A stretch of DNA of 64,000 nucleotides from Chrysomallon squamiferum (taxonomy: Eukaryota; Animalia; Mollusca), in NCBI GenBank assembly GCA_012295275.1, contig CM022677.1, forward strand, positions 5,456,001 to 5,520,000, in the 5' to 3' direction. Below, piece by piece: positions 1 to 56,775 of the stretch (its first letter is position 1; each line of letters opens with the position of its first letter). Under the pieces are notes generated by a model. That model was not told the origin of the DNA, did not search any database, and worked only from the letters and a program-made list of their open reading frames with translations. The position numbers and the translations under genes are program-made.

Positions 1-87
1 AACATCCCATCACAACGATAGATTGATCGTAAATAATCAATAAATTATATATATATATAATATTTATAACGTATATGACGTCACATA

Positions 88-393
88 TCTTCAAAATAAA
101 AAATCAAGACGTGATAGATTTCAACTAAACTCTTGTTTACTGTTAAAAAAACAAAGTTCCACTATTAGCTGGCTTTCTAGCTTTTGGCTTTTTGACCATA
201 ATGCGCTTTTAACCCGAAGGTGATCCGTAGGGTTCAGGCTTCGCCCGAAGGAACGTTATCACCTTCGGGTTAAAAGTACATTATGGTCAAAAAGCCAAAA
301 GCTAGAAAGCCAGCTAATAGTGGAACTTTGTTTTTTTAACAGTAAACAAGAGTTAGGTAGAAATCTATCAGGTCATGATTTTTTCTTTGAAGA
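88..393. repeat. Long palindrome 1 (parvovirus-like terminal hairpin)
   Basis: Arms 128-224 and 258-354 are 97-nt reverse complements with 2 mismatches. The 33-nt spacer is 225-257 (ccgtagggttcaggcttcgcccgaaggaacgtt). Imperfect pairing extends to about 88-393. Confidence 0.9.
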
Positions 394-396
394 GAT

Positions 397-439
397 GTCT
401 ATATATGTCACGTGATATTGTCATGTGACATATATAGAC
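397..439. repeat. Small secondary hairpin
   Basis: gtctatatatgtcac ... gtgacatatatagac are perfect 15-nt inverted arms around a 13-nt spacer. Confidence 0.75.
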
Positions 440-520
440 TATAATAATAGTATTGCGATTAATTATTACTTCAGTCGTCTTCACGTCGTTGTATGTGATA
501 GATGTTCACAGCGTTAGGTA

Positions 521-846
521 TTGATCGAATACGCTTTCGATGCTTCTGGTGAACTTGCTACATCTGCTATAATAGATTCGACTGCACCAGCTATTACAGA
601 AATAATAGGAGCTGACAGTTTGTTATTGGAACCAGCTACAGCTATAGGACAGAGTATAGTGGAGTCGTCTGTTGAAGGTATTTCTACATATACTAAAAAC
701 AAGAGACATTAGATCAATTTGTCGACTTTGTTACACCGGATATAAAGGATATAGACGCTGACGTTTCTCCATCGGAACGACAGCAATTAGAGCAGGAAGA
801 GGACGAATACGTAACTTACGTATATAGGAATAGTCCGGTTTCATGA
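521..846 (+). pseudogene. Small viral-like ORF upstream of the capsid, apparently frameshifted
   Basis: ORF 521-712 continues after a 1-nt shift as DQFVDFVTPDIKDIDADVSPSERQQLEQEEDEYVTYVYRNSPVS*. Its TGA overlaps the capsid ATG (ATGA, 843-846). Confidence 0.4.
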
Positions 847-2987
847 ATAAAGGAAAACGTCTTCTGAATAAAAAGGAAGTGACGAGACTTTGGGCTATAG
901 CTAAATCCAAAGCATTTTCGATATTATCGGATTTCAATGTCCCATTTGAAGAACGACAAACCAGGTGGCTACAGATCAGACGTCAGTATCCAAATCTACA
1001 AATTCCTAATCAAAATTTCTATCAGGCAATACAGAATCTTAGGGAGAACTATAACGCTGCTGAAGATTCGGACGAAGACGACCCTTTCAGCACCCCTTTA
1101 TACCCAGACGACGACATCAACAACAACCAACAACCAGCAGCAGGGAGAGATATTGAACGATCCGGAAATCAAGATACTAAACCAGCTATGAAACGACAAA
1201 CAAGCGAACCAGCCGGTGGAAGTAATTCTAAAGTTGCTAATAATAACAAGCAACTGTCTCACAGGATATCGCAAGATGTCATAGAACAGTCTAATTCTAA
1301 AGGAACCTATCTTCAGCCTAACGAATCGGTGATGGAACCCGATTCGATTATGAACGAAAAGGTAACAGATACAGGAGGAAGTGAGGCTGTCGAAGGTGCT
1401 CCGATCGCTTCGGCTACAGGTAATAATGTTTTGTACCAAGGATTTGGAGGATGTACTAAAGGAGCTGATCCCCGATATATAACGATAAAAAAGACATTTA
1501 AACGAACATTTACGAGTACCATTAATTTTACTAAAACCAGAAAGGCTATTATGAAAATATTAGATAATGATACGGATGATGTAAATTGGAAAAAAGCTAT
1601 AGGTGATCCTAATGTTTGTGAATTAACGTTTAATCACGGTGGTCATATTACACCCTATTGGTATAAACAGGCCAGCACCAGACCAGATGACTGGAATTTA
1701 CCCGATGATTTTGTTGGATATAAAATAAAACGATTTGGTTTCAATATAAACAATATGATTATACATGTATTAAATAATAATAAATCAGATCCGAATGAGG
1801 TACCAGTAATGGCACCTCCAAATTCACGTGTGTGGACGTTCACCGATATCTATAATGATTATGGTCCACCGGAGAAGAATTTAAACCTATCTCACAACCA
1901 TTATTTTAGAGATGAGGAATGTATGGATAGTACTAGTCTTAGGAGTATACCAGTTCAACCCGATCGTAAACTGTATCTGCCCAGTGACGTAGGAATGCAA
2001 TTATTAAACCACGCTTGGAATGGTGACGGAATAACATACACAGCCGAATCACCTAATTATATTTACGATATGAAAAAACACGATGGCTACAGAGAAACAG
2101 TCATAAGTGCTGGTGGTTTCGCTTTAGATTATACGTGTAAGGATTCACCGGTAGTGTTATTTCCATCTGAATCGTCTCAGACACTCAGTTGTACTGAAAT
2201 GTCTGGAATGTTCAAGAAAAATCACTATCAATGTTCAAACGAAAACAAAGGTAATTTGGAAGTATGGCCAACACATGACATTATAGTGACTAATACAACT
2301 ACACATCCTATGGGAACAGCAATAGCAACGTATTTTAATCATCAGTACAGAAAGGTTCACTATACGGCCTGTTTTCAAAATAATCCAGCTAAACTGCTCG
2401 GTGCTCCATCCCTTGTAGATGACGGTGGTACGAAACTTAGCAAGACAGGTGTAATGGCCAACGATGCCAATAATCCCATAGTAGATACGTGCAAAGATGG
2501 CACGCATAGACGAACGTTCCAATGCAACCGACCGCCCATTTTTTTAATCGGTTTATATCCTGATATAGAAAAAACAAGTGGTGGGGCTACACTGTTTTTT
2601 AATTATCATGCGAATATACAAATAACCTATTATAGCGAAGTAGAGTTTGTAGTGAGAACCGGAATGTGTCCAAAATACATACCCATAGGCTTGGACGGAT
2701 GTCCTGGTCCAATGCAAGGACTCACGTTCAAAGCTAACGATACGAAGCCAATGGGAAATAAAGACAATATCAAACATACCGAACAAGATCAATTTTTAGG
2801 TGAGAGTGCAAAAGAATATAAAGAACGAATTGAAAAAACCTGGAAAATGAGAACATTTGCTCCAATTTGGGATAACTGGAACAAACGTAAAGCTAGACGT
2901 AGACAATTGTGGCCTATTCACGGTGCATATGGAGATAGAAGTGTTCCGATAATGGCTAATGCTTTCGATTGGTCTTATCCTATATAA
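843..2987 (+). CDS. Parvovirus/densovirus-like capsid protein (VP), intact 714 aa, endogenous viral element
   Basis: Long intronless ORF. A disordered Gly/Ser-rich N-region is followed by YITIKKTFKRTF, then HITPYWYKQASTRPDDW..GYKIKRFGFNINNM (resembles the parvoviral TPW..SP.DW..F.L.NI core) and RPPIFLIGLYP..YHANIQITYYSEVEF (densovirus-like C-terminal strands). It is adjacent to an SF3 helicase and hairpins. AATAAA lies at 2992-2997. Confidence 0.85.
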   Translation: MNKGKRLLNKKEVTRLWAIAKSKAFSILSDFNVPFEERQTRWLQIRRQYPNLQIPNQNFYQAIQNLRENYNAAEDSDEDDPFSTPLYPDDDINNNQQPAAGRDIERSGNQDTKPAMKRQTSEPAGGSNSKVANNNKQLSHRISQDVIEQSNSKGTYLQPNESVMEPDSIMNEKVTDTGGSEAVEGAPIASATGNNVLYQGFGGCTKGADPRYITIKKTFKRTFTSTINFTKTRKAIMKILDNDTDDVNWKKAIGDPNVCELTFNHGGHITPYWYKQASTRPDDWNLPDDFVGYKIKRFGFNINNMIIHVLNNNKSDPNEVPVMAPPNSRVWTFTDIYNDYGPPEKNLNLSHNHYFRDEECMDSTSLRSIPVQPDRKLYLPSDVGMQLLNHAWNGDGITYTAESPNYIYDMKKHDGYRETVISAGGFALDYTCKDSPVVLFPSESSQTLSCTEMSGMFKKNHYQCSNENKGNLEVWPTHDIIVTNTTTHPMGTAIATYFNHQYRKVHYTACFQNNPAKLLGAPSLVDDGGTKLSKTGVMANDANNPIVDTCKDGTHRRTFQCNRPPIFLIGLYPDIEKTSGGATLFFNYHANIQITYYSEVEFVVRTGMCPKYIPIGLDGCPGPMQGLTFKANDTKPMGNKDNIKHTEQDQFLGESAKEYKERIEKTWKMRTFAPIWDNWNKRKARRRQLWPIHGAYGDRSVPIMANAFDWSYPI

Positions 2988-2999
2988 AACAAATAAAAC

Positions 3000-3039
<40 letters not shown>

Positions 3040-3137
3040 TTTAATAATAATATTTTGGTAACAATATGTCTAAAACTATTTCCTATTAACGGTGTATGAA
3101 TACAGTGAACAGTCTTAGTAAACGTTTACATTCATTT

Positions 3138-3232
3138 TGTCACGTACACATGTATGACGTTATGTTATGACGTCATGTTTAAATGGTTATAAATAAAACG
3201 TTCGTTTTGAAATTTTGTCACTCGTTAGTTGT
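3138..3232 (+). promoter_or_regulatory. Putative viral NS promoter (ACGT half-sites, CRE, TATA)
   Basis: Clustered ACGT motifs, TGACGTCA at 3168-3175, TATAAATA at 3188-3195 and Inr-like TCACTC/TTAGTT about 30 nt downstream, immediately 5' of the NS1 remnant. Confidence 0.5.
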
Positions 3233-3276
3233 TATTTCAACATTGACAAATAATATATATATATATATATATATAT

Positions 3277-4432
3277 AATCATACCTCGGGTGATAAACTG
3301 TTCAAAGCAGCTCGTTCGAAATACTTAGAAGAACAATCAGACAAAAGTGCATATGATCAGATCTGTGATTTAAACGATGCCATAGATCATTATATGACTC
3401 CAGAACACAGTTTGAAAATGTTTAACAGCTGGTGTATTGAACAAGAAATACCTGAACGATGGTTATTCTGTTTAATAGTCGGTTTGCTTAAAGGAAAAGG
3501 AAAGAAAAAAGTTGGCATATATTTCCAAGGAGAATCGGATTCGGGAAAAACAATGGTAACAAGTTCGATATTTGAATATTTACCATGTGCTGGAAAGATT
3601 GCCAAAGATAACTTTCCATGGCAGATGCTTGGAAACAAGAAAGTAGTGTTAGGTGAGGAAATATCTATTAACCAAACAAACATTGACAAGTATAAAGATT
3701 TACTGAGTGGAAGCAAAGCGACCCGCAAGAGAAAAGGAACTACGCCATGTTATTGTAGAGCAAATATCTGCATGTTAAATTCCAACAATACGTTCGGAGA
3801 TGGTTTGACAACGTCACAAATAAGTATCATGAAAACACGGTTGTACCTGGTACAGAAGTCAAAAAAAAAGTGATGTATTAAAACATTCGTATAATTTAAT
3901 GCATCCAAAGTTATTTACAATTGCACGTGAACCATATGAAGAGGAAATCAACATAGCGTTAGAAAACGATAGAGACTATTTTACTAATAAAGGAAATAAC
4001 AACATCAATGATAACACATTCGATGGTCGAAACAGTTTCTTTCATGACAATTTCGATGATAGTCAGCCAGTGCTAACAACACAGGAGCCAATATGTAATG
4101 ACATGCATGACGATAACATACAATACACCACTATATCTAGTGACGAAGAGGAGGAGTCGGAAACTAAGTCATACAATCCATCACAGGATCTGTTCATTAC
4201 ATCACAAAATGGTAAACAAACACAAGGTACTAAGAGACCACGTGAGGAGCAGGACGATCTAGACCAAAATTACATAACGGTCGGTTATGAACCGAGTGAA
4301 CCAGAACAAAAACGATTTAAATACTATATTCCAGAATCACAGCCATTCGAAGCAATGTTTACACAGACAATACTGGAAACACAAATGGATGCATTCAATA
4401 AGATGAAAGCAGAAAATGAATATGAACAGTAA
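3277..4432 (+). pseudogene. NS1: Parvoviral NS1/Rep remnant (SF3 helicase plus acidic C-terminus), 5'-truncated and frameshifted
   Basis: Walker A GIYFQGESDSGKT, Walker B VVLGEE, B' KDLLSG..RKRKG, motif C MLNSN and Arg-finger region KTRL. The frame is open from the (TA)n at ~3277, breaks at the A-run 3861-3869 and resumes in ORF 3899-4432. No HUH nuclease domain is visible. AATAAA lies at 4501-4506. Confidence 0.88.
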
Positions 4433-4607
4433 ACTTTTCAATGTTACGTCATTAATTAATATAGTTATATTCAAAACTATACTTATGTATTACAGTTTAA
4501 AATAAATAAAATAAATATATTATTGTTATTATTAAATCTTGTTATTATTTTAACAATATTTAAACTATAATACTCTTCAAAAAGAAACAAATAGTTGGAA
4601 GGAAAAT

Positions 4608-4857
4608 CTGATAGATTTCTACCTAACTCTTGTTAACTGTTAAAAAAACAAAGTTCCTCATTAGCTGGCTTTTTAGCTTTTTGGCTTTTTGACCATAATG
4701 CACTTTTAGCCCGAAGGTGATAACGTTCCTTCGGGCGAAGCCTGAACCCTACGGATCATAAGCTAAAAGTGCATTATGGTCAAAAAGCCAAAAAGCTAAA
4801 AACCCAGCTAATGAGGAACTTTGTTTTTTTAACAGTAAACAAGAGTTAGGTAGAAAT
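4608..4857. repeat. Long palindrome 2 (same family as palindrome 1, loop inverted)
   Basis: Arms ~4615-4721 and 4755-4857. Spacer 4722-4754 (aacgttccttcgggcgaagcctgaaccctacgg) is the exact reverse complement of spacer 225-257. Confidence 0.9.
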
Positions 4858-4858
4858 A

Positions 4859-5140
4859 ATGGATCAACATATAGAGATCAACAACGAAACGATGAATTAC
4901 TATGCAGTAATCATAGGTCCCAAGGACTATGATCTCGTCCATCCACAGTATCTTACAGCAAGAGCCCTTGCTAAAGACAAAGATGGCAAGTACGTAAAAA
5001 ACTTCATCAAAAGCTATATGATGGACCGTCAAGGTATGCTAGACAAAACAGCCGACCACTGGTCAACTCCACACACAGAATATCTACAAAAGGGTCATCA
5101 CAGAAATAAAAGAAGTGACAAGACTTTGGGCAATAGCTAA
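4859..5140 (+). CDS. Unassigned ORF inside the viral element (93 aa)
   Basis: ATG-initiated, non-repetitive ORF between hairpin 2 and capsid copy 2. It is not similar by eye to the region upstream of capsid copy 1. Confidence 0.3.
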   Translation: MDQHIEINNETMNYYAVIIGPKDYDLVHPQYLTARALAKDKDGKYVKNFIKSYMMDRQGMLDKTADHWSTPHTEYLQKGHHRNKRSDKTLGNS

Positions 5141-6889
5141 ATCTAAAGCATTATCTATATTAGCTGATTTAAATGTGACGGTTGATCAACGCCAAGATAG
5201 GTGGTTACAAATACGACGTCAGTATCCAAATTTACAAATACCTAATCAAAGTTTCTATAAGGCAATACAAGATCTTCGGGAAAACAATAACAAATTTGAG
5301 CATTCGGACGAAGAGGACCCTTTCGATACGCCTTTATACCCAGAAGACGAACCAATACAAATTACAACAAGATCAGAATCAAAATAAACAATGAAGAGAC
5401 AAACAAGTGAACCAGCAGGTGGATCAAGTTCCAAAGTGCCTAACAATAATCAGTTATCTGATAGAATATCGCAAGATGTACTAGAACAATCTAATTCTAA
5501 AGGAACATACCTTCAACTTCATGAATCTGTAATGGAACCTGATTCTGTTATGAATGAAGAAGTTACTGATACAGGTGGAAGCGAAGCTGTTGAAGGTGCT
5601 CCTATGGCTTCAGCTACAGGTAACAACGTTTTGTATCAAGGATTTGGAGGAACCACTAAAGGAGCTAATCCTAGATATATAACTATTAAAAAAACATTCA
5701 AACGAAAATTTACTAGTGTTATAAATTTTACTAAGACTAGGAAAGCTACAATGAAAGTATTAGATAATGGAACAGAAAATACTAATTGGAAAAAAGCTAT
5801 AGGTGATCCTAATGTTTGTGAATTAACATTTAATCATGGAGGACATATTATACCATATTGGTATAAGCAAGCTAGCACTAAACCTGATCACTGGAATTGA
5901 CCAGATGAATTTGTTGGATATAAAATTAAAAAATTTGGATTTAATATAAATAATATGATAATACATGTTTTAAATAATACTAAATCAGATCCAAATGAAG
6001 TACCAGTGATGGCACCTCCAAACGCACGAGTTTGGACATTTACAGATATTTACAATGATTATGGATTACCGGAAAGAAATTTAAAGTTGTCACATAATAA
6101 TAATTTTTTAGATGACGAATGTATGGATAACACATCTCAAAGAAGCATACCGGTTCAACCAGATCGTAAACTATATGTACCTATGATATAGGTATGCAAT
6201 TGTTAAATAATGCTTGGAATGGTAATGGTATATTGTATCAAGCAGAAACACCTAATTACATATATGATATGAAGAAACATGATGGATATAGAGAAACGGT
6301 TATTAGTGCAGGTGGATTTGGATTAGATTATACATGTAAAGATTCCCCACTTGTTATATTTCCAGGAGAATCCAGTCATACTTTAAATTTTACTCAAATG
6401 ACAGGAAATATTAGGAAAGATAGATATCAATGTAGCAATGAAAATAAAGACAATTTAGAAGTGTGGCCAACACATGAAATTACAGTAACTAATGTATCAA
6501 CACATCCTATGGCAACTGCAATAACCACATATTTTAATCATCATTATACAGCTTGTTACCAGAACAATGCATCTAAAGTTTTGGGTGCTCCATCAATGGT
6601 AGATGATGGAGGTACTAAAATGGCTAAAACTGGTGTAATGTCAAATGATGCAGATTATCCGAACATTAATACATATATAGATGGATCGCATAGAAGAACG
6701 TTTCAATGTAATAGACCTCCAATATTCCTAATTGGTTTATATCCAGATGTGGAAAAAACTACTAATGGAGCTACATTATTTTTTAATTATCATACAAATA
6801 TACAAATTACGTACTACAGCGAAGTTGAATTTTTGGTCAGAACCGGTGTGTGTCCTAAGTATATACCAATAGGTTTAGGTGGATGTTAA
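5105..6889 (+). pseudogene. Second, diverged parvovirus-like capsid gene (pseudogenised, 3'-truncated)
   Basis: Colinear with 843-2987. Lesions: in-frame stops at 5385-5387 and 5898-5900, a frameshift near 6185, a 5-codon deletion (QYRKV), and truncation after PIGLGGC. Confidence 0.9.
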
Positions 6890-6916
6890 AGTACATTTGG
6901 TCAAAAAGCCAAAAGC
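6885..6916. repeat. Fragment of hairpin arm at the virus-host junction
   Basis: gttaaagtacatttggtcaaaaagccaaaagc matches 269-302 with two 1-nt deletions. Confidence 0.8.
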
Positions 6917-7139
6917 CAGTCTGTTCAACTCTGTTAGTTAAATAGGTCAACTGATTCCATTTTATGTTTTAACGATGTTTTATAGGGTACATTTTTACCA
7001 GAACTCTTGGTATTTATTTATTTTAAGTTTTGATTAGATTATTAAGTACAGTATTCTTTCAAAACTAAATTATTTAAAAATATAAAATTAAATTTAAAAA
7101 AATATTATCTCCCTTAAACCAAAATCATTTTAAAAAAGT

Positions 7140-7666
7140 AACTTCTTTTTTCACAGACTTGTCTGTACTTGGTGCTGTGTCTGGTCCAAACATTGTGTAT
7201 ACTGAATATATCTGATCACATCTTTCATGAACAACATTGTAACTTTGAATCTAAATTCAGTAACACAATATTATACATTTTTCAATAAGAACAGTCCATG
7301 ATTCAAACAAGTAATGTTTTTAAAATGTTATTTTATCCAGTTATTCAGTTCTTTATATTTACCGTGGAGATGTTTTTTACTTCTGTTTACTTAGATCAGT
7401 AAAGTCAGAAAACCTGAAGAACTTGGAGGCAAACTTGTCAAGTCATTTAGATTCAGTGGACATCAGTTCTTGTAAATAGCTTTCTGTAAGGACTGAAATA
7501 AAAAATATTACATTCAAACATTTTAACAAGACCCACTATAATTTTATATTTTATCATTTGAATCTAAAGTAATGTTTTCAACCAATAATAAGTACAGTTA
7601 ATTTAACTGAAATAAAATAAAGTTTAATTATATTTATTTAAACAGTCTTGTTGGACCTCTATTTTT

Positions 7667-23165: not shown

Positions 23166-25065
23166 ACCACAGTCTGTAATACTAGAAACGAGGCACTGCC
23201 TTCAACAAACAGACTCACTCATAGAATAGTACACACCACAGTCTGTGATATACTGGACACGGTGCACTGCCTTCAACAAACAGACTCACTCATAGAATAG
23301 TACACACCACAGTCTGTAATACTAGAAACGAGGCACTGCCTTCAACAAACAGACTCACTCATAGAATAGTACACTAGAAACGAGGCACTGCCTTCAACAA
23401 ACAGACTCACTCATAGAATAGTACACACCACAGTCTGTAATACTAGAAATGAGGCACTGCCTTCAACAAACAGACTCACTGATAGAATAGTACACACCAC
23501 AGTCTGTGATACTAGAAACGAGGCACTGCCTTCAACAAACAGACTCACTCATAGAATAGTACATTCCACACACTGTAATATACTATACACGGTGCACTGC
23601 CTTGATCGGACACACTGACAGGATAGTACATACCACAGTCTGTAATATACGAGACCCGAAGAATTGCCTTGATCAGACTCACTGACAGGATAGTACATAG
23701 CACAGTCTGTAAACAGTACCCTACCTTGAACAGACTCACTGAGAGGGTAGTACATACCACAGTCTGTAATATACTGGAGAAGATGCTCTGCCGTGAACAA
23801 ACAGACTCACTGACAGCATAGTACATACCATAGTCTATAATATACTAGACCCGATGCACTGCCTTGAACACACAGACACTGACAGGATAGTACATACCAC
23901 AGACTGTAATAAACTAGATACATGCATTGCCTTGAACAAAGAGACTCTCTGACAGGGTAGTACATACCACTGGCTGTAATATACTAGATACACTGCACTG
24001 CCTTGAACAGACTCAGTGAGAGGGTAGTACATACCACAGTTTGTAATATACTAGACACGATCCACTACCTTGAACAAACAGACTTACTAAATTGGTAGTA
24101 CATACCACAGTCTGTAATATACTGGAGAAGATGTACTGTCTTGAACAAACAGACTCACTGACTGGATAGTACGTACCATACTCTGTAATACACTACACGC
24201 GATGGACTGCCTTGAACAAACAGACTCACTGATTGGGTGGTACATACTACATTCTGTAATAGAGATGACACACTGCCTGGAACAAACAGGCTCTCTGACA
24301 AGGTAGTACATACCACTGTCTGTAATATAGACACGATCCACTACCTTGAACAAACAGACTCACTGACAAGATAGTACATACCACAGTGTGTAATATACTA
24401 GATACAGTGCACTGCCTTGAACAAACAGACTCCAGACAGGATAGTACATACCACAGTCTGTACTAGATACAGTGCACTGCCTTGAACATACCACTGACAG
24501 GATAGTACATACCAGAGTCTGTAATATACTAGATACAGTGCACTCCCTTGAACAGACTCACTGTCAGGATAGTAAATATCACAGTTAATATATTACATAA
24601 AGTGCTCTGCCTTAAACAAAGAGACTCATTCACAGAGTAGTACATATTGCAGACTGCGATATACTAGACATGATGCTCTGCCTTGAACAGGCAGACTAAC
24701 TGACAGGATAGTACATATCTGTAATATACTGGACAAGAATCACTGCCTTGAACAGACAGAGTCACTGACACGATACTACATACCACAGTCTACTAGACAC
24801 GAAGAACTGCCTTTAACAAACAGACTCACTCACAGGATTGTACATACCACAGTTTGTAATATTCTACATAAAGTGCACTGCCTTCAACAAACAATAATTG
24901 ACAGAATAGTATATACCACAGTCTGTAATATACTAAACACGATGCATTGCCTTGAACAAACAGACTCGCTGACAGGTTAGTACATTCCACACTCTGTAAT
25001 ATACTATACACGGTGCACTGCCTTGATCGGACTTACTGACAGGGTAGTACATAGTACAGTCTGTT
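23166..25065. repeat. Minisatellite, ~69-71 bp unit, about 27 copies
   Basis: Unit is approximately ccacagtctgtaatatactagacacgatgcactgccttgaacaaacagactcactgacaggatagtacata. Confidence 0.92.
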
Positions 25066-39230: not shown

Positions 39231-41690
39231 TATGTGTGTGAGTGTGTTTGTGAGTGTATCAGCACTAGTGATAATTTCTACTCTGATAATAGTGATGATT
39301 GGTTCTGTGATAATACTAGGTGTGTGTGTGAGTGTACCAGATATAGTGATAACTGCTACTCTGATAATAGTAATTGTGTGTATGTTTGTGTGTGTGTGTG
39401 TGTGTGTGTCAGAAATAGTCATAATAGTGTCTGTGTTTCAGCACAAGTGATAATTACTACTCTGATAATAGTGTATGTGTGTGTGTGTATCTGTTTGAGT
39501 ATCGGCAATAGTGATAATTGCTACTCTGATAGTTTGTGTGTGTGTATCAGCAATAGTTGTAACTGCTTCTTTGATAATAGTATGTGTGTGTATTTGTATG
39601 TATGTGTGTATCAGCAGTAGTTACAATTGCTAACTCTGATAACAGTATGTGTGTCATAATTGCTACTCTGATAATAGTTTGTGTGTCAGTGTAACTACTG
39701 TTATAATTGTGTGTGTGTCAGGAATAGTACAACTGCTACTCTGATACTACTGTGTGTATGTAAGGGTAACTGTGTGCGTCTGTGTGTCTGTTACAGTGAT
39801 AATTGCTACTGATAATAGTATGTGTGTGTGAGTGTATGAGCAATAGTGATAATTGCTAGTCTGATATTGGTATGTGTTTGTGTTTGAGTGTATCAGCAAT
39901 AGTGATAACTGCTACTCTGATAATACTGTCTGTGTGAGTGGTATCAGCAATGGTGTTAATCTGATAATAGTATGTGTTTGTGTATGCATATTTGTATGTA
40001 TGTTAGTATGAGCAAGAGTTAACTACTCTGATAATAGTAACAGTGTTCGTGTCAGTGTATCAGCAATAGTGATAATTGCTACTCTGATAATAGTGTGTGC
40101 ATGTGAGTGTATCAGCAATAGTGATAATTGCTTCTCTGATAATAGTGTGTATGTGTGTGCCTGTGTGTTTGTCAGTTTATCAGCAATAATGATATTTGCT
40201 CCTCTGATAATAGTATTAGTGTGTGTATCAGCAATATTGGTAATTGCTTCTCTGATAATAGCATGTGTGTTTGTGTGTATGTTTCTGTGTGTGTATTAGC
40301 AATAGAGATTACTAATCTGATAATAATGTGTGTTTGTCTGTGTGTATCAGCAATAGTGACTATTGCTACTCAGATAATTGTCTGTGTCAGTGTACCAGCA
40401 ATAGTGATAATTACTTCTGAGATAATAGTATGTGTGTGTAACAGCATAGTGTGTGTATGTGTGTGAGTGTATCAGCCATACTGATAACTGCTACTCTGAT
40501 AATAGTATCTGTGTGTGTGTGTCTGTGTCAGCAATATTGAAAATTGCAACTCTGATAGTATGTGTGTATGAGTGAGTGTTTGAGCAATACTGATAACTGC
40601 TAGTCTGATAATAGTGTGTGCAATAGTGATAATTGCTACTCTGATGATAGTATGTGTATGTCAGTGTATGATAATAGTATGTGTGTGTGTTTGTGAGTGT
40701 ATGAGCAATAGTGATACTTGCTTGTGATAATAGTGTGTTTGTGTGAGTATATCAGATATAGTTATAACTGCTTTTCTGTTCATATTGCGTGTGTATCAGC
40801 AATACTGATAACTGTCTCTCTGATAATAGTATGTATGTGTGTGAGTGTATCAGCAATAGTGACAATTGCTACTCTGATAATAGCATGTGTGAGTGTATCG
40901 GCATTAGTGACAATTACTACTCTGATAATAGTACATGTGTATGTGTGAATGTATCAGCAATAGTGATAATTGCTTCTCTGATAATAGCAGGTGTGTTTGT
41001 GTGTATGTGTATGTGTGTCTATAAGCAATAGAGATAACTACTACTCTGATAATAATGTGTGTGTGTGTGTGTGTATCTGCAATAGTGACCATTGCTACTT
41101 AGATAATAGTGTGTGTGTGTGTGTCTATGAGCAATAGTGATAATTGCTTCTCTGATAATAGCATGTGTGTATGTGGCTGTGTGTGTATCAGCAATAATAT
41201 TTGCTAATCTAATAATAGTATGTGTATATATCCGCAACAGAGATAACTACTAATAATACTATGAGTGTGTGTGTGTGTGTGTGAGAATCAGCAATAGTGA
41301 TAATTTCTACTCTGATAGTGTCTGTGTATAAGCAATAGTTTTAATTGCATCAGAACTAGTGATAACTTCTATGCAGATAGTAGTGTGTATGTGTGTGGTT
41401 CTGTGTATGTATGTGTATCAGTAATAGTGATAATAGTGTGTGTGTGTGTCAACAATAGTGTAATTGCTACTCTGATAATGGTGTGTGTTTGTGACTGTGT
41501 CAGCAATACTGACTATTGCTACTCAAATAATTGTCTGTGTCAGTGTGATAATTACTTCTGAGATAATAGTATGTGTGTGAGTGTATCGGCCATACTGATA
41601 ACTGCTACTCTGATAATAGTGTGTGTGTGTATCAGCAATAGTTATAATTGCTACTATTAAGATAACAGTGTGTGTGTTTGTGTGTGTATT
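39230..41690. repeat. Compound minisatellite, ~45-60 bp units with (GT)n spacers
   Basis: Core tatcagcaatagtgataattgctactctgataatagt is repeated dozens of times, separated by variable GT tracts. Confidence 0.92.
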
Positions 41691-45053: not shown

Positions 45054-46512
45054 TACAAATACAAAATACATACAAATAATACACACACAGATACATATAC
45101 ATGCTACATACCAATACATACAACAAACAGGGACAGATACACACATAGATACGTACATACAAATACATACAAATAATACACACACAGATACATATACATG
45201 CTACATACCAATACATACAACAAACAGGGACAGATACACATAGATACGTACAAATACATACAAAAATAATACACACACAGATACATATATACATGCTACA
45301 TACCAATACATACAACAAACAGGGACAGATACACATATATACGTACATACAAATAATACACACACAGATACATATACATGCTACACCAATACAAACAAAC
45401 AGGGACAGATACACATAGATACGTACATACAAATACATACAAATAATACACACACAGATACATATACATGCTACATACCAATACATACAACAAACAGGGA
45501 CAGATACAGATACGTACATACAAATAATACACACACAGATACATATACATGCTACATACAAAAACAGGGACAGATACACATAGATACGTACATACAAATA
45601 CAACAAATAATACACACACAGATACATATACATGCTACATACCAATACATACAACAAACAGGGACAGATACACATACGATACAAATACATACAAATACAT
45701 ATAAATAATACACACACAGATACATAGATACATACACAACAAACAGGGACAGATACACATAGATACGTACATACAACATAATACACACAATACATATACA
45801 TACAAACAAACAGGGACAGATACACATAGATACGTACATACAAATACATACAAATAATACACACACAGATACATATACATGCTACATACCAATACATACA
45901 ACAAACAGGGACAGATACAGATACACATAGATACAAATACATACAAATAATACACACACAGATACATATACATGCTACATACCAATACATACAACAAACA
46001 GGGACAGATACACATAGATACGTACAAACAAATAATACACACACAGATACATATACATGCTAATACATACAACAAACAGGGACAGATACACATATATACG
46101 TACATACAAATACAAATAATACACATGCTAGATACAAAACAGGGACAGATACACATAGATACGTACATACAAATACATACAAATAATACACACACAGATA
46201 CATATACATGCTACATACCAATACATACAACAAACAGGGACAGATACACATAGATACGTACATACAAATACAGATACAAATAATACACACACAGATACAT
46301 ATACATGCTACATACCAATACATACAACAAACAGGGACAGATACACATAGATACGTACATACAAATACATACAAAAACAGGGACAGATACACATAGATAC
46401 AAACACAGATACATATATACATATACATGCTACATACCAATACATACAACAAACAGGGACAGATACACATAGATACGTACATACAAATACATACAAAATA
46501 ATACAAACACAG
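45054..46512. repeat. CA-rich minisatellite, ~85-95 bp unit
   Basis: Repeats of aataatacacacacagatacatatacatgctacataccaatacatacaacaaacagggacagatacacatagatacgtacatacaaat. Confidence 0.92.
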
Positions 46513-46517
46513 ACTTG

Positions 46518-49604: not shown

Positions 49605-50279
49605 CTAACAGGATCCTTCAAGTTCCAAGACTGCTTCGAAAAGTGTTACTGCATTTGGAAAATCAGAACCATCTTTTCTTTTCCGATTATCAATGGACTT
49701 TTGAATAAGTTCAATAGAATATCCCATTTCCAAAACTGCCTGGATCGCTGGGCTGTAGACATAATTACTACTCGAGCTGTCACCACTTGTTGCTTGAGTC
49801 ACAACGCTATTCACAGATTTTACAAAACAGCTGTTGTCGGCTTTATTGCGGCTCTATTCAACAATATTCGTTTTATTTTTCGAGTCCTTCTTTAATTCCT
49901 CAACTTCAACCATTTTCCTTATTTCATCAACGTCCAGTTTGTCAGCGAATTCACAGTTCTTAGCCCATTCTTTGTGAACAACTGGCGGAAAATCATCGTC
50001 ATCCCAGTCACGCAAAGTTAGTCCACAATGAAAACATCTTGCGCGATCCGCCGATCCTATGTAGAAAAATCCACAGTGAGCCAAAACACTGGGCTTCTGC
50101 AAGGGTGATAAGAGCGGCCATCCAACGAAGCTTTCCAACCTTTTTTCATAGATCTCGTACTCCCTGTATTTTGGAATACTACCAGAACTACTAGTACTAC
50201 TAATGCCTTTGTAATTTTTGAACGTCTCCCAACTTATGTTTGAATTCACTGGAACTGAATCTGTCTGAATATCAGACAT
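49605..50279 (-). pseudogene. Inhibitor-of-apoptosis (IAP/BIRC) gene exon: one BIR plus UBA, interrupted by an in-frame TAG
   Basis: YEKRLESFVGWP..LAHCGFFYIGSADRARCFHCGLTLRDWDDDDFPPVVHKEWAKNCEF fits C-x2-C-x16-H-x6-C. After the TAG at 49856-49854 the same frame gives SPAIQAVLEMGYSIELIQKSI..FPNAVTLFEAVL (IAP-type UBA). A possible next exon lies at ~49069-48952. Confidence 0.9.
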
Positions 50280-50337
50280 TTTGATAAATTCGAGCAACTG
50301 ATTAGCGAGTATAAATGGCGTCGTCTATACTTTAGAA

Positions 50338-50911: not shown

Positions 50912-51975
50912 TTACCATACTGAATAGCGATTTCATTAGCTTTGTAAAGAAAATAACTAATCATTATATATATATATTACCATACTGAATAGCGATTTCA
51001 TTAGCTTTGTAAAGAAAATAACTAATCATTATATATATATTACCATACTGAATAGTGATTTCATTAGCTTTGTAAAGAAAATAACTAATCATTATATATA
51101 TATTACCATACTGAATAGTGATTTCATTAGCTTTGTAAAGAAAATTACTAATCATTATATATATATATATATATATACCATACTGAATAGCGATTTCATT
51201 AGCTTTGTAAAGAAAATAACTAATCATTATATATATATTACCATACTGAATAGCGATTTCATTAGCTTTGTAAAGAAAATTACTAATCATTATATATATA
51301 TTACCATACTGAATAGCGATTTCATTAGCTTTGTAAAGAAAATAACTAATCATTATATATATATTACCATACTGAATAGTGATTTCATTAGCTTTGTAAA
51401 GAAAATTACTAATCATTATATATATATTACCATACTGAATAGTGATTTCATTAGCTTTGTAAAGAAAATTACTAATCATTATATATATATTACCATACTG
51501 AATAGCGATTTCATTAGCTTTGTAAAGAAAATAACTAATCATTATATATATATATTTCATTAGCTTTGTAAAGAAAATAACTAATCATTATACTGATATA
51601 TTACCATACTGAATAGTGATTTCATTAGCTTTGTAAAGAAAATTACTAATCATTATATATATATATATATATACCATACTGAATAGCGATTTCATTAGCT
51701 TTGTAAAGAAAATAACTAATCATTATATATATATTACCATACTGAATAGCGATTTCATTAGCTTTGTAAAGAAAATTACTAATCATTATATATATATATT
51801 ACCATACTGAATAGATTTCATAGATTTGTAAAGAAAATAACTAATCATTATATATATATAGATAGAATAGTGATTTCATTAGCTTTGTAAAGAAAATTAC
51901 TAATCATTATATATATATTACCATATTGAATAGCTATTTCATTATTTTTGTAAAGAAAAATTAAATCATTAATAT
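50912..51975. repeat. Minisatellite, ~63 bp unit, about 16 copies
   Basis: Unit ttaccatactgaatagcgatttcattagctttgtaaagaaaataactaatcat(ta)n. Confidence 0.93.
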
Positions 51976-52055
51976 ATCATGGGAATAGAATTTCATTAGA
52001 TGGATAGATAGATTATTAATCATTATGGGAAGAATTTTATATATACATATATATG

Positions 52056-54929: not shown

Positions 54930-56775
54930 CAGTGTTTGTCTGTTTGTGTGTTGGTGTGTGTCTGGTTGTGTGTTGGTGTGTGTCTGTCTGTGTGTTGGTT
55001 GTGTTTGCTTGTGTGATGGTGTGTGCTTGTTTGTTTGTGTGTTGGTGTGTGTTTGTGTGTCGGTGTGTGTTTGTTTGTTTGTGTGTGTGTGTTTTGTGTG
55101 TTGGTGTGTGTGTTTGTACATATATATGTATTTGAGTGTTGGTGTGACACATATACATATATATCATACACACAGACATACAGATACACACAGACACACA
55201 TATACATCATACACACAGACATACAGATACACACACAGACACATATACATCATACACACAGACATACAGATACACACAGACACATATACATCATACACAC
55301 AGACATACAGATACACACACAGACACATATACATCATACACACAGACATACAGATACACACACACACACACATATACATCATACACACACAGACATACAT
55401 ACACACACAGACACATATACATCATACACACAGACATACAGACACACACACACACACATATATACACACAGATACAGATACACACACACACACACACACA
55501 CATACATCATACACACAGACATACAGATACACACACAGACACATATACACCATACACAGAGACATACAGATACACACAGACACATATACATCATACACAC
55601 AGACATACAGATACACACAGACACATATACATCATACACACATGCATACAGATACACACAGACACATATACACACAGACACATATATATTATACACACAC
55701 AGACACATATACATCATACACATAGCCATACAGATACACACAAACACATATACATCATACACACAGACATACAGATACACACAGACACATATACATCATA
55801 CACACATACATACAGATACACACAGACACATATACACACAGACACATATATATTATACACACACACACACACATATACATCATACATACAGATACACACA
55901 CAGACACATATACATCATACACACAGACATACAGATACACACACAGACACATATACATCATACACAAAGACATACAGATACACACAGACACATATACACA
56001 CAGACACATATACACAGATACAGATACACACACATACACATTATACATCATACACACAGACATACAGATACATACACAGACACATATACATCATACACAC
56101 AGACATACAGATACACAGACACATATACAGATACATTATACACACATGCATACAGATACACACACAGACACATATACATCATACACACAGACATACAGAT
56201 ACACACACAGACACATATACATCATACACACAGACATACAGATACACACACAGACACATATATATCATACACACAGACATACAGATACACACAGAAACAC
56301 ATATACATCATACACACAGACATACAGATACACACACAGACACATATACATCATACACACAGACATACAGATACACACACAGACACATATACATCATACA
56401 CACAGATATACAGATACACACACAGACACATTATACATCATACACACAGACATACAGATACACACACAGACACATTATACAGCATACACACAGACATACA
56501 GATACACAGACACATATACATCATACACACAGACATACACATACACACAGACATACAGATACACACACAGGCAAATATACATCATACACACAGACATACA
56601 CATACACACAGACATACACATACACACAGACATACAGATACACACACAGGCAAATATACATCATACACACAGACATACAGATACACACACAGACACATAT
56701 ACATCACACACACAGACATACAGATACACACACAAACACATATACACCATACACACAGACATACAGATATACACG
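54930..56775. repeat. GT-rich tract followed by a CA-rich ~40-bp minisatellite
   Basis: Degenerate (GT)n at 54930-55145, then cacatatacatcatacacacagacatacagatacacacacaga units. Confidence 0.92.

What the first reader, a model, noticed from the sequence alone, without database searches (positions are those of the whole stretch)
88..4857. Near-complete endogenous parvo-like genome with both hairpins and a capsid-before-NS1 gene order
Seen: hairpin -> VP(+) -> polyA -> promoter -> NS1(+) -> polyA -> hairpin. The inward-facing arms match each other as inverted repeats beyond the core (ctgatagatttctacctaactc at 4608 is the reverse complement of 350-371; ctcttcaaa at 4573 mirrors 386-394). Known: Parvoviridae are NS-then-VP monosense or ambisense, and a head-to-tail NS-VP concatemer would put the hairpin after VP, not after NS. 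Endogenous parvoviral elements seldom keep their termini. Inference: this is a new lineage with reversed monosense order, fused segments of a segmented virus, or a hairpin-bounded mobile element carrying cap and rep.
Basis: partly seen in the sequence, partly recalled or inferred. Interest (0 to 1): 0.9.

Follow-up and report, generated by a model that had tools for sequence, protein, structure and literature searches.

The report
Fossil capsid-first parvovirus with hairpin ends
An animal genome carries a broken, likely multi-copy fossil of an unclassified parvovirus, with both hairpin ends and an intact capsid gene placed in front of a truncated replication gene, an order that is likely the virus's own and the reverse of textbook parvoviruses.

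Summary
Real, but less intact than described. Two matching ~250-300-nt hairpins in inverted-repeat geometry flank an intact 714-aa ORF whose model matches parvovirus capsids, and an NS1 gene on the same strand downstream. NS1 is only its C-terminal (SF3 helicase) half, with a frame change and no HUH nuclease; its first ~85 codons lie beyond hairpin 2, fused to a second, broken, 77%-identical capsid copy. So this is a dead, rearranged array of integrated virus genomes. Locus-identical contigs occur in 4 of 4 runs laid (3 studies); the hairpin-capsid and NS1-hairpin joints are bridged, the capsid-NS1 joint is not. The capsid family has 58 unannotated relatives; 12 of 16 Logan clusters checked lie on 5.8-7.5 kb contigs, arguing against a segmented virus. 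One relative (QKE54994) most likely belongs to a 7.2-kb bird-cloaca genome for which Shan et al. 2022 noted a structural ORF upstream of NS; that link is by accession arithmetic only. Verdict: endogenous member of an unclassified parvovirus lineage whose capsid-first order is probably native (~0.6), mentioned in passing in print, here with termini and a host genome.

The parts
1..93 (-). Start of a second, diverged 5'-type end reading leftward out of hairpin 1 (head-to-head), with CRE-like plus TATA-like motif at 61-83; runs off the window
   Evidence: (similar to the right flank beyond the ITR, 1 of 500 shuffles as good)
83..398 (.). Hairpin 1: extended palindromic terminus, ~130-bp stem with small branched tip
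390..500 (+). Likely capsid promoter region directly inside the ITR (E-box-like and TATA-like motifs; function inferred)
   Evidence: bridged to hairpin and capsid ORF by single contigs in X2, X3, X5
500..845 (+). Remnant of a small upstream ORF (open 518-712; broken by a frame change and a stop); no family hit
   Evidence: other copies keep parts of it behind the hairpin (joints 376>627, 699>761)
843..2987 (+). Intact 714-aa capsid gene: conserved three-helix N-terminal domain, disordered linker, jelly-roll core; no PLA2 motif
2992..3052 (+). AATAAA signal and (TAA)n tract after the capsid stop
3155..3254 (+). Internal promoter-like region and leader, likely the native NS1 promoter
   Evidence: its last 7 letters equal those at the start codon of the displaced NS1 N-terminal piece; 0 of 44 other AT runs are preceded by the same 5 letters
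3253..3277 (.). (AT)n run at the break where about 1 kb of NS1 is missing
3280..4432 (+). C-terminal half of NS1 (SF3 helicase plus acidic tail), frame change at 3863-3882, no HUH domain
   Evidence: (PF01057, E 3.2e-8)
4501..4515 (+). Three overlapping AATAAA signals after the NS stop
4573..4857 (.). 3'-type inner ITR and hairpin 2 (loop is the reverse complement of hairpin 1's), cut in its outer arm
   Evidence: bridged to NS by single contigs in 4 of 4 runs
4859..5107 (+). Displaced N-terminal piece of NS1 (about 85 codons, with a frame change near its end)
   Evidence: 52% identity to P0018/P0019 N-termini, E 4e-18 and 2e-20
5105..6886 (+). Second capsid copy from a different strain, 77% nucleotide identity, 5' and 3' truncated, two stops and a frame change
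6888..6919 (+). Hairpin-arm fragment at the junction with AT-rich host DNA

Best explanation
The locus holds two matching terminal hairpins, an intact parvovirus-fold capsid gene and a broken NS1 gene behind it on the same strand, and is likely a germ-line fossil of a single-segment parvovirus whose own order was hairpin, capsid, NS1, hairpin. The virus would have replicated by rolling-hairpin synthesis (hairpins prime, NS1 nicks and unwinds; established for Parvoviridae, inferred here), with the end promoter driving the capsid and an internal promoter driving NS1, the reverse of other monosense parvoviruses (inferred). Replicative-form DNA of at least two strains was captured as a concatemer, with breaks inside hairpins and at microhomologies (inferred from the junctions); NS1 lost its nuclease domain, so this copy cannot replicate on its own (shown: domain absent; inferred: inactivity).
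For: Capsid fold: all listed top PDB and BFVD matches are parvovirus or densovirus proteins, best 9nek E 2.6e-10 (atlas 0.94 to parvoviral capsid clusters). NS1: PF01057 E 3.2e-8; full-length relatives at 56-71% identity carry HUH and YxxYL motifs. Order needs no extra event: each gene has its own promoter-like and poly(A) motifs, and the two ends differ as a 5'-type (promoter follows) and a 3'-type (poly(A) precedes, 12-nt longer inner spacer) end. The leader after the capsid gene ends in the same 7 letters that carry the start codon of the displaced NS1 piece (0 of 44 other AT runs are preceded by those 5 letters; post hoc). Hairpin-capsid joint bridged in 3 of 4 runs' listed contigs, NS-hairpin joint in 4 of 4, 0-3 differences. 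12 of 16 Logan capsid clusters looked up lie on contigs of 5.8-7.5 kb. Relative QKE54994 most likely is the middle ORF of MT138329 (7244 nt), described as having the structural ORF upstream of NS. Capsid copies differ at 170 codons synonymously against 86 by amino acid, 208 third- against 42 second-position changes: they diverged as functional genes.
Against: No relative's DNA was seen, so gene order and strand in any free virus of this family are not shown. The QKE54994-MT138329 link rests on accession arithmetic, the figure was not seen, and Shan's 'structural ORF' may be another ORF than this capsid. The window capsid is only 27% identical to QKE54994 and sits on a side branch (quick tree). 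The capsid-NS1 stretch crosses two microsatellites and no listed contig bridges them. The locus is demonstrably rearranged (displaced NS1 start, fused second capsid), so a local inversion is not far-fetched. The motif pair in front of NS1 also stands directly inside the ITR on the left of hairpin 1, as an ambisense or segmented virus would have it. 4 of 16 Logan clusters have only 2.8-3.7 kb contigs, and the NS relative P0017 lies on 2601 nt.
Confidence: 0.62

Rival explanations
1. The virus had an ordinary ambisense (or NS-first) layout, and one inversion or shuffle of the NS cassette during or after integration made the present order.
For: Locus is rearranged at three other joints. A promoter with the same two motifs as the NS promoter points leftward out of hairpin 1, as at a head-to-tail joint of an ambisense genome. 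Capsid-NS joint unbridged.
Against: The left flank resembles the capsid-side end (1 of 500 shuffles) and not the NS promoter region (64 of 500) or the inner end of hairpin 2. Hairpin 2's inner end is a distinct type preceded by poly(A) signals. A published statement of structural-before-NS order exists for genomes of the size of the relatives' contigs.
Confidence: 0.2
2. A bipartite virus like Acheta domesticus segmented densovirus, whose capsid and NS segments share termini and were fused on integration.
For: Shared termini that diverge inward on the two sides of hairpin 1; precedent with identical corresponding termini (PMC10267136); NS relative alone on a 2601-nt contig; summed depth of capsid-like contigs far above NS-like ones.
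Against: No hairpin remnant between capsid and NS, so two termini would have to be lost cleanly; 12 of 16 capsid clusters on 5.8-7.5 kb contigs, about twice a segment's size.
Confidence: 0.09
3. A hairpin-bounded mobile element family carrying cap and rep that multiplies in the germ line, with non-autonomous hairpin-only derivatives.
For: Summed depth at hairpins 13- to over 100-fold the locus's own contigs, above capsid and far above NS (not a copy number); clusters of intact and broken copies on long contigs in other assemblies; purifying selection between copies.
Against: Rep here is broken; joints fall inside hairpins, not at their ends; the closest family members lie on virus-sized contigs and one is filed as Parvoviridae sp.; CpG is undepleted in copy 1 (o/e 1.02 against 0.40 in the flank), as for recently arrived viral DNA.
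Confidence: 0.05
4. Assembly misjoin at the (TAA)n or (AT)n tract that brought a capsid piece and an NS piece from two loci together.
For: No listed contig crosses either tract.
Against: All pieces have the same single-locus depth in four runs; tracts are only 25 and about 60 nt; the leader left of the AT run matches the NS1 start context regardless of what lies right of it.
Confidence: 0.04

Closest known systems
Bar-headed-goose cloacal parvo-like genomes MT138329 and MT138334 (Shan et al. 2022, PMC9001828)
   Same: Structural ORF stated to lie upstream of NS; QKE54994, a member of this capsid family (E 6.9e-53 to the profile, 27% identity to the window), most likely comes from MT138329; sizes 7244 and 7497 nt match the longest contigs of relatives (7179-7535).
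   Different: About 7.3 kb with a third large ORF, against roughly 5.5-6 kb estimated for the window element with only a small upstream ORF remnant; no host, termini or capsid identification given in the passages seen; link inferred, not shown.
Monosense Parvoviridae (Parvovirinae, Hamaparvovirinae/Hamavirinae; best structural match Syngnathus scovelli chapparvovirus capsid 9nek)
   Same: Jelly-roll capsid fold, HUH-SF3 NS1 in relatives, hairpin termini, two cassettes on one strand.
   Different: Order reversed (review PMC11357303: NS always on the left); capsid has no sequence hit in Pfam or PDB, a long N-terminal extension with a conserved three-helix domain and no PLA2.
Acheta domesticus segmented densovirus (PMC10267136)
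   Same: Separate VP and NS cassettes with shared terminal hairpins.
   Different: Its termini do not form ITRs and segments are 3.3 kb; here ends are inverted repeats and relatives lie mostly on 5.8-7.5 kb contigs.
Swazi bat megaparvovirus 1 lineage and its beetle EVEs (PMC13426907)
   Same: Large, likely homotelomeric genomes outside the subfamilies, with extra ORFs upstream of NS1 and complete endogenous copies.
   Different: There the true capsid (504-577 aa, hamavirus-like, no N-terminal extension) follows NS1; here a 714-aa capsid precedes it. Sequence relation not tested.

Membership tests
Parvoviridae (origin of the element) | NS1 with SF3 helicase domain | tested here: met
   PF01057 33.3 bits against cut-off 20; Walker motifs align with B19 NS1 and AAV Rep40
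Parvoviridae (origin of the element) | NS1 with HUH endonuclease | tested here: inconclusive
   Absent from this copy; HUH and YxxYL motifs present in close full-length relatives P0017, P0018, P0019 by motif only, no profile hit for that domain
Parvoviridae (origin of the element) | Single jelly-roll capsid protein of parvoviral fold | tested here: met
   AlphaFold2 core pLDDT 80-95 in most blocks; Foldseek best hits parvovirus capsids, E 2.6e-10, TM 0.52 by target length
Parvoviridae (origin of the element) | Palindromic hairpin termini at both ends | tested here: met
Parvoviridae (origin of the element) | Linear ssDNA packaged in T=1 particles | not testable with these tools
   No particle or strand data; contigs cannot show it
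Parvoviridae (origin of the element) | SF3 phylogeny placing it in the family or a subfamily | not tested
   No reference NS1 set was available from the tools; atlas features of relative P0017 are nearest to parvoviral NS1 clusters (0.97)
Canonical monosense parvoviruses | NS cassette left, VP cassette right | tested here: not met
   Order at the locus is capsid then NS
Ambisense densoviruses | NS and VP on opposite strands, usually PLA2 in VP1 | tested here: not met
   Same strand at the locus; no HDxxY motif in the capsid; 1 of 38 family members scanned has a PLA2 domain (P0053)
Bipartite parvoviruses (AdSDV type) | VP and NS on separate ~3 kb segments, each with two termini | tested here: inconclusive
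   No terminus between the genes; 12 of 16 relatives on 5.8-7.5 kb contigs, contents not seen
Endogenous viral element | Embedded in host DNA and shared by individuals | tested here: met
   Right side continues into AT- and microsatellite-rich DNA; locus-identical contigs in 4 of 4 runs from 3 studies, one possibly the source; left host junction lies outside the window

The most novel reading that the evidence does not exclude
This is the first host-anchored, termini-bearing representative of an unrecognised subfamily-level parvovirus lineage (at least 50 capsid clusters, genomes of about 5.5-7.5 kb) in which capsid-before-NS1 order is the rule, the capsid starts with a conserved three-helix domain of no known fold in place of PLA2, and hairpin-ended genomes have entered invertebrate germ lines repeatedly and in many copies.
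Probability: 0.5. Interest if true: 0.8.

Novelty: new variant of a known kind. Interest (0 to 1): 0.62.

Why it matters
Reviews state that NS always occupies the left end of parvovirus genomes. A lineage with the capsid under the terminal promoter and NS1 under an internal one would need another way to time early and late expression, and would widen the family's definition. The locus identifies as a capsid a protein family that databases leave unnamed, gives it hairpin sequences that metagenomic contigs usually lack, and ties it to an animal germ line. The claim is cheap to settle from public contigs.

Tried and rejected
No whole genome is held, so copies could not be mapped. All 8 viral-contig scans, 2 metagenome-contig scans and 1 genome-contig scan gave no usable locus; one search reported one relative but returned no locus; L001 is a 20-residue chance match inside a transposase ORF. 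MT138334 is not in the annotated collections. No RNA holder listed. Pfam and PDB sequence searches do not recognise the capsid, singly or as a 33-row profile. A suspected shared motif between capsid and NS 3' regions was not significant (43 and 188 of 500 shuffles). The small upstream ORF does not match the PLA2-bearing relative. The N-terminal three-helix domain has no PDB match at E <= 0.001; VIA-align was busy. The sigma-70 scan is irrelevant to a eukaryotic promoter. The NS N-terminal piece had no cover in X2 and its two joints are not among the listed bridged ones. Earlier findings: nothing on this sequence or genome; two unrelated notes. No SF3 tree was built for want of reference sequences. 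Host DNA beyond 6960 was not checked against runs.
Full report
1. What is in the sequence. Two long palindromes are real: arms 94-224/258-388 (94% complementary) and 4615-4710/4762-4857 (98%); folding z-scores are -31 and -27, with 0 of 100 shuffles as stable in each case. The loop of hairpin 2 is the exact reverse complement of that of hairpin 1, the geometry of inverted terminal repeats. Between them lie, on the + strand, a broken small ORF (about 500-845), an open 714-codon ORF (843-2987), AATAAA and a (TAA)n tract, a promoter-like stretch, an (AT)n run, an NS piece (3280-4432) and three AATAAA signals. The CRE-like plus TATA-like motif pair occurs twice in 64 kb, at 3168-3195 (+) and 61-83 (-), and never in 100 shuffles, but I chose the pattern after seeing it.

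2. The first ORF is a capsid. It has no Pfam or PDB sequence hit. A profile search of 1.84 billion representatives gave 58 relatives at E <= 0.001, 35 at 1e-30; of 38 scanned in Pfam only P0053 had a hit, an N-terminal PLA2. An AlphaFold2 model from a 33-row alignment (mean pLDDT 60.7; core blocks mostly 80-95; 338 residues under 50) matched parvovirus capsids in all listed top PDB rows, best 9nek, E 2.6e-10, and parvoviral proteins in BFVD; the atlas placed it nearest to parvoviral capsid clusters at 0.94. There is no PLA2 motif; a conserved three-helix N-terminal domain has no known match.

3. NS1 is not near-complete. The piece holds an SF3 helicase (PF01057, E 3.2e-8) and is 56-71% identical to five longer proteins. 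Aligned to them it starts at residue 329 of the 680-aa P0017 and changes frame at 3863-3882. The relatives carry HUH and YxxYL motifs; that region has no trace in the window (best E 0.66). The first 85 or so codons of an NS1 lie just outside hairpin 2 (4859-5107; E 2e-20 to P0019), fused to a second capsid copy (5105-6886, 77% nucleotide identity, broken) that ends in a hairpin fragment (6888-6919) before host-like DNA. The two capsid copies differ mostly at third positions (208 against 68 and 42; 170 synonymous-only against 86 amino-acid-changing codons), so they come from two functional strains, not from decay of one duplicate. Left of hairpin 1 a further promoter-bearing end reads leftward; it resembles the capsid-side end (1 of 500 shuffles) more than the NS promoter region (64 of 500). 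The locus is a rearranged concatemer.

4. It is endogenous and mostly assembly-proof. Seven runs of one organism from three studies hold 76-96% of the sampled words. I laid 4 of the 10 listed runs on 1-6960. Contigs with 0-5 differences tile most of the element at one depth level per run. Single contigs join hairpin 1 to the capsid ORF in X2, X3 and X5, and the NS piece to hairpin 2 in all four. No listed contig crosses the two microsatellites between capsid and NS, nor the joints at 4858 and 5105 (only part of the contig table was shown). Many diverged contigs stack on the hairpins and the capsid, few on NS; high-depth contigs also run from the hairpin into the small ORF (joints 376>627 and 699>761), so hairpin-then-capsid-cassette recurs in other copies. 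The host is not identified; 28% GC, dense microsatellites and a BIR-domain frame suggest an invertebrate (inference).

5. Is the order native? For: no terminus lies between the genes, each has its own promoter-like and poly(A) motifs, and the two ends are of two types. The leader after the capsid gene ends in the same seven letters that carry the start codon of the displaced NS1 piece; none of 44 other AT runs in the window is preceded by those five letters (post hoc, suggestive). I looked up 19 of the 58 capsid hits; 16 are Logan clusters, and 12 of these reach 5805-7535 nt, four only 2840-3738 nt: whole-genome size, not segment size. One hit is QKE54994.1, 'hypothetical protein, Parvoviridae sp.'. 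Shan et al. [quoted passage not shown] QKE54986 goes with the sequence whose best genome hit is MT138323, and QKE54992 is a bar-headed goose parvovirus capsid; counting two proteins per record and skipping the two records that the supplement lists apart puts QKE54994 in the middle of MT138329's three ORFs. That would place this capsid ahead of NS in a free genome. It is arithmetic, not a look-up. Against: no relative's DNA was seen; the window capsid is 27% identical to QKE54994 and on a side branch of a quick tree; the locus is rearranged elsewhere; and the motif pair of the NS promoter also stands inside the ITR left of hairpin 1, as in an ambisense or segmented virus.

6. How it likely works. 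Shown: anatomy, capsid fold, helicase, loss of the nuclease domain, presence in several individuals. From established parvovirus biology (reviews seen): hairpins prime replication, NS1 nicks and unwinds. Inferred: a homotelomeric, single-segment virus of about 5.5-6 kb with the capsid under the terminal promoter and NS1 under an internal one; capture of replicative-form concatemers of two or more strains by end-joining at hairpins and short homologies; this copy is inert for replication, though its capsid frame is open and expression is untested. Odds: native capsid-first order 0.62, local rearrangement 0.20, fused segments 0.09, mobile element 0.05, misjoin 0.04. That it derives from a parvovirus-like virus I hold at above 0.95.

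7. Comparison and novelty. It works like a parvovirus and meets the testable family features, but fits neither the NS-first monosense nor the ambisense plan; subfamily placement was not tested. Searches for a description of capsid-first order or of these accessions found only Shan et al. (one search found no paper naming QKE54994); the library lacks most subscription journals. Papers seen: PMC9001828 passages and supplement rows, not Fig. 7D; PMC11357303 abstract and sections 1.1.1 and 6; PMC13426907 abstract, Introduction, section 3.3 and a blank search of two supplement files; PMC10267136 passages; PMC9896142 abstract and Results; PMC11768072 and PMC9695665 the passages; PMC5013282 passages; PMC13055364 abstract. 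Figures and unheld supplements of the first and third may bear on gene order. Motif names (CRE, E-box, TATA, HUH) are recalled labels.

Noticed in passing
window 843-1073 (+): The capsid family starts with a conserved, confidently predicted three-helix domain (W-x-x-A-K motif; mean pLDDT 83) that has no PDB match at E <= 0.001; it stands where other parvoviruses have PLA2, and in P0053 follows a PLA2 domain.
   Followed up: partly
window 233-464 and 4641-4872: Summed contig depth at the hairpins is 13- to over 100-fold that of the locus's own contigs, more than capsid and far more than NS bins; hairpin-rich derivatives may be abundant in this genome (depth is not a copy number).
   Followed up: no
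proteins P0001-P0021 (ENA contigs of 8418, 60905, 297455, 452437, 559615 nt): The nearest relatives occur as several intact and broken capsid and NS copies on contigs of equal lengths, which looks like similar endogenous clusters in other assemblies.
   Followed up: partly
window 843-2987 against 5105-6886: Copy 1 has 38.6% GC and CpG o/e 1.02, copy 2 32.6% and 0.57, the flank 27.7% and 0.40: the two strains differ in composition or age.
   Followed up: no
window 49857-50324 (-): Uninterrupted open frame with one BIR (inhibitor of apoptosis) domain, PF00653 E 9.9e-18.
   Followed up: partly
window 23166-25064, 39233-41677, 45059-46513, 50912-51977, 55147-56773: Large minisatellite arrays (periods about 69, 52-56, 97, 63 and 43 nt) that drive strong local skews.
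   Followed up: no
window 500-845 (+): Broken small ORF ahead of the capsid gene, rich in Ala/Ile/Ser/Thr then acidic; kept in other copies; may be a minor capsid exon or accessory gene.
   Followed up: partly
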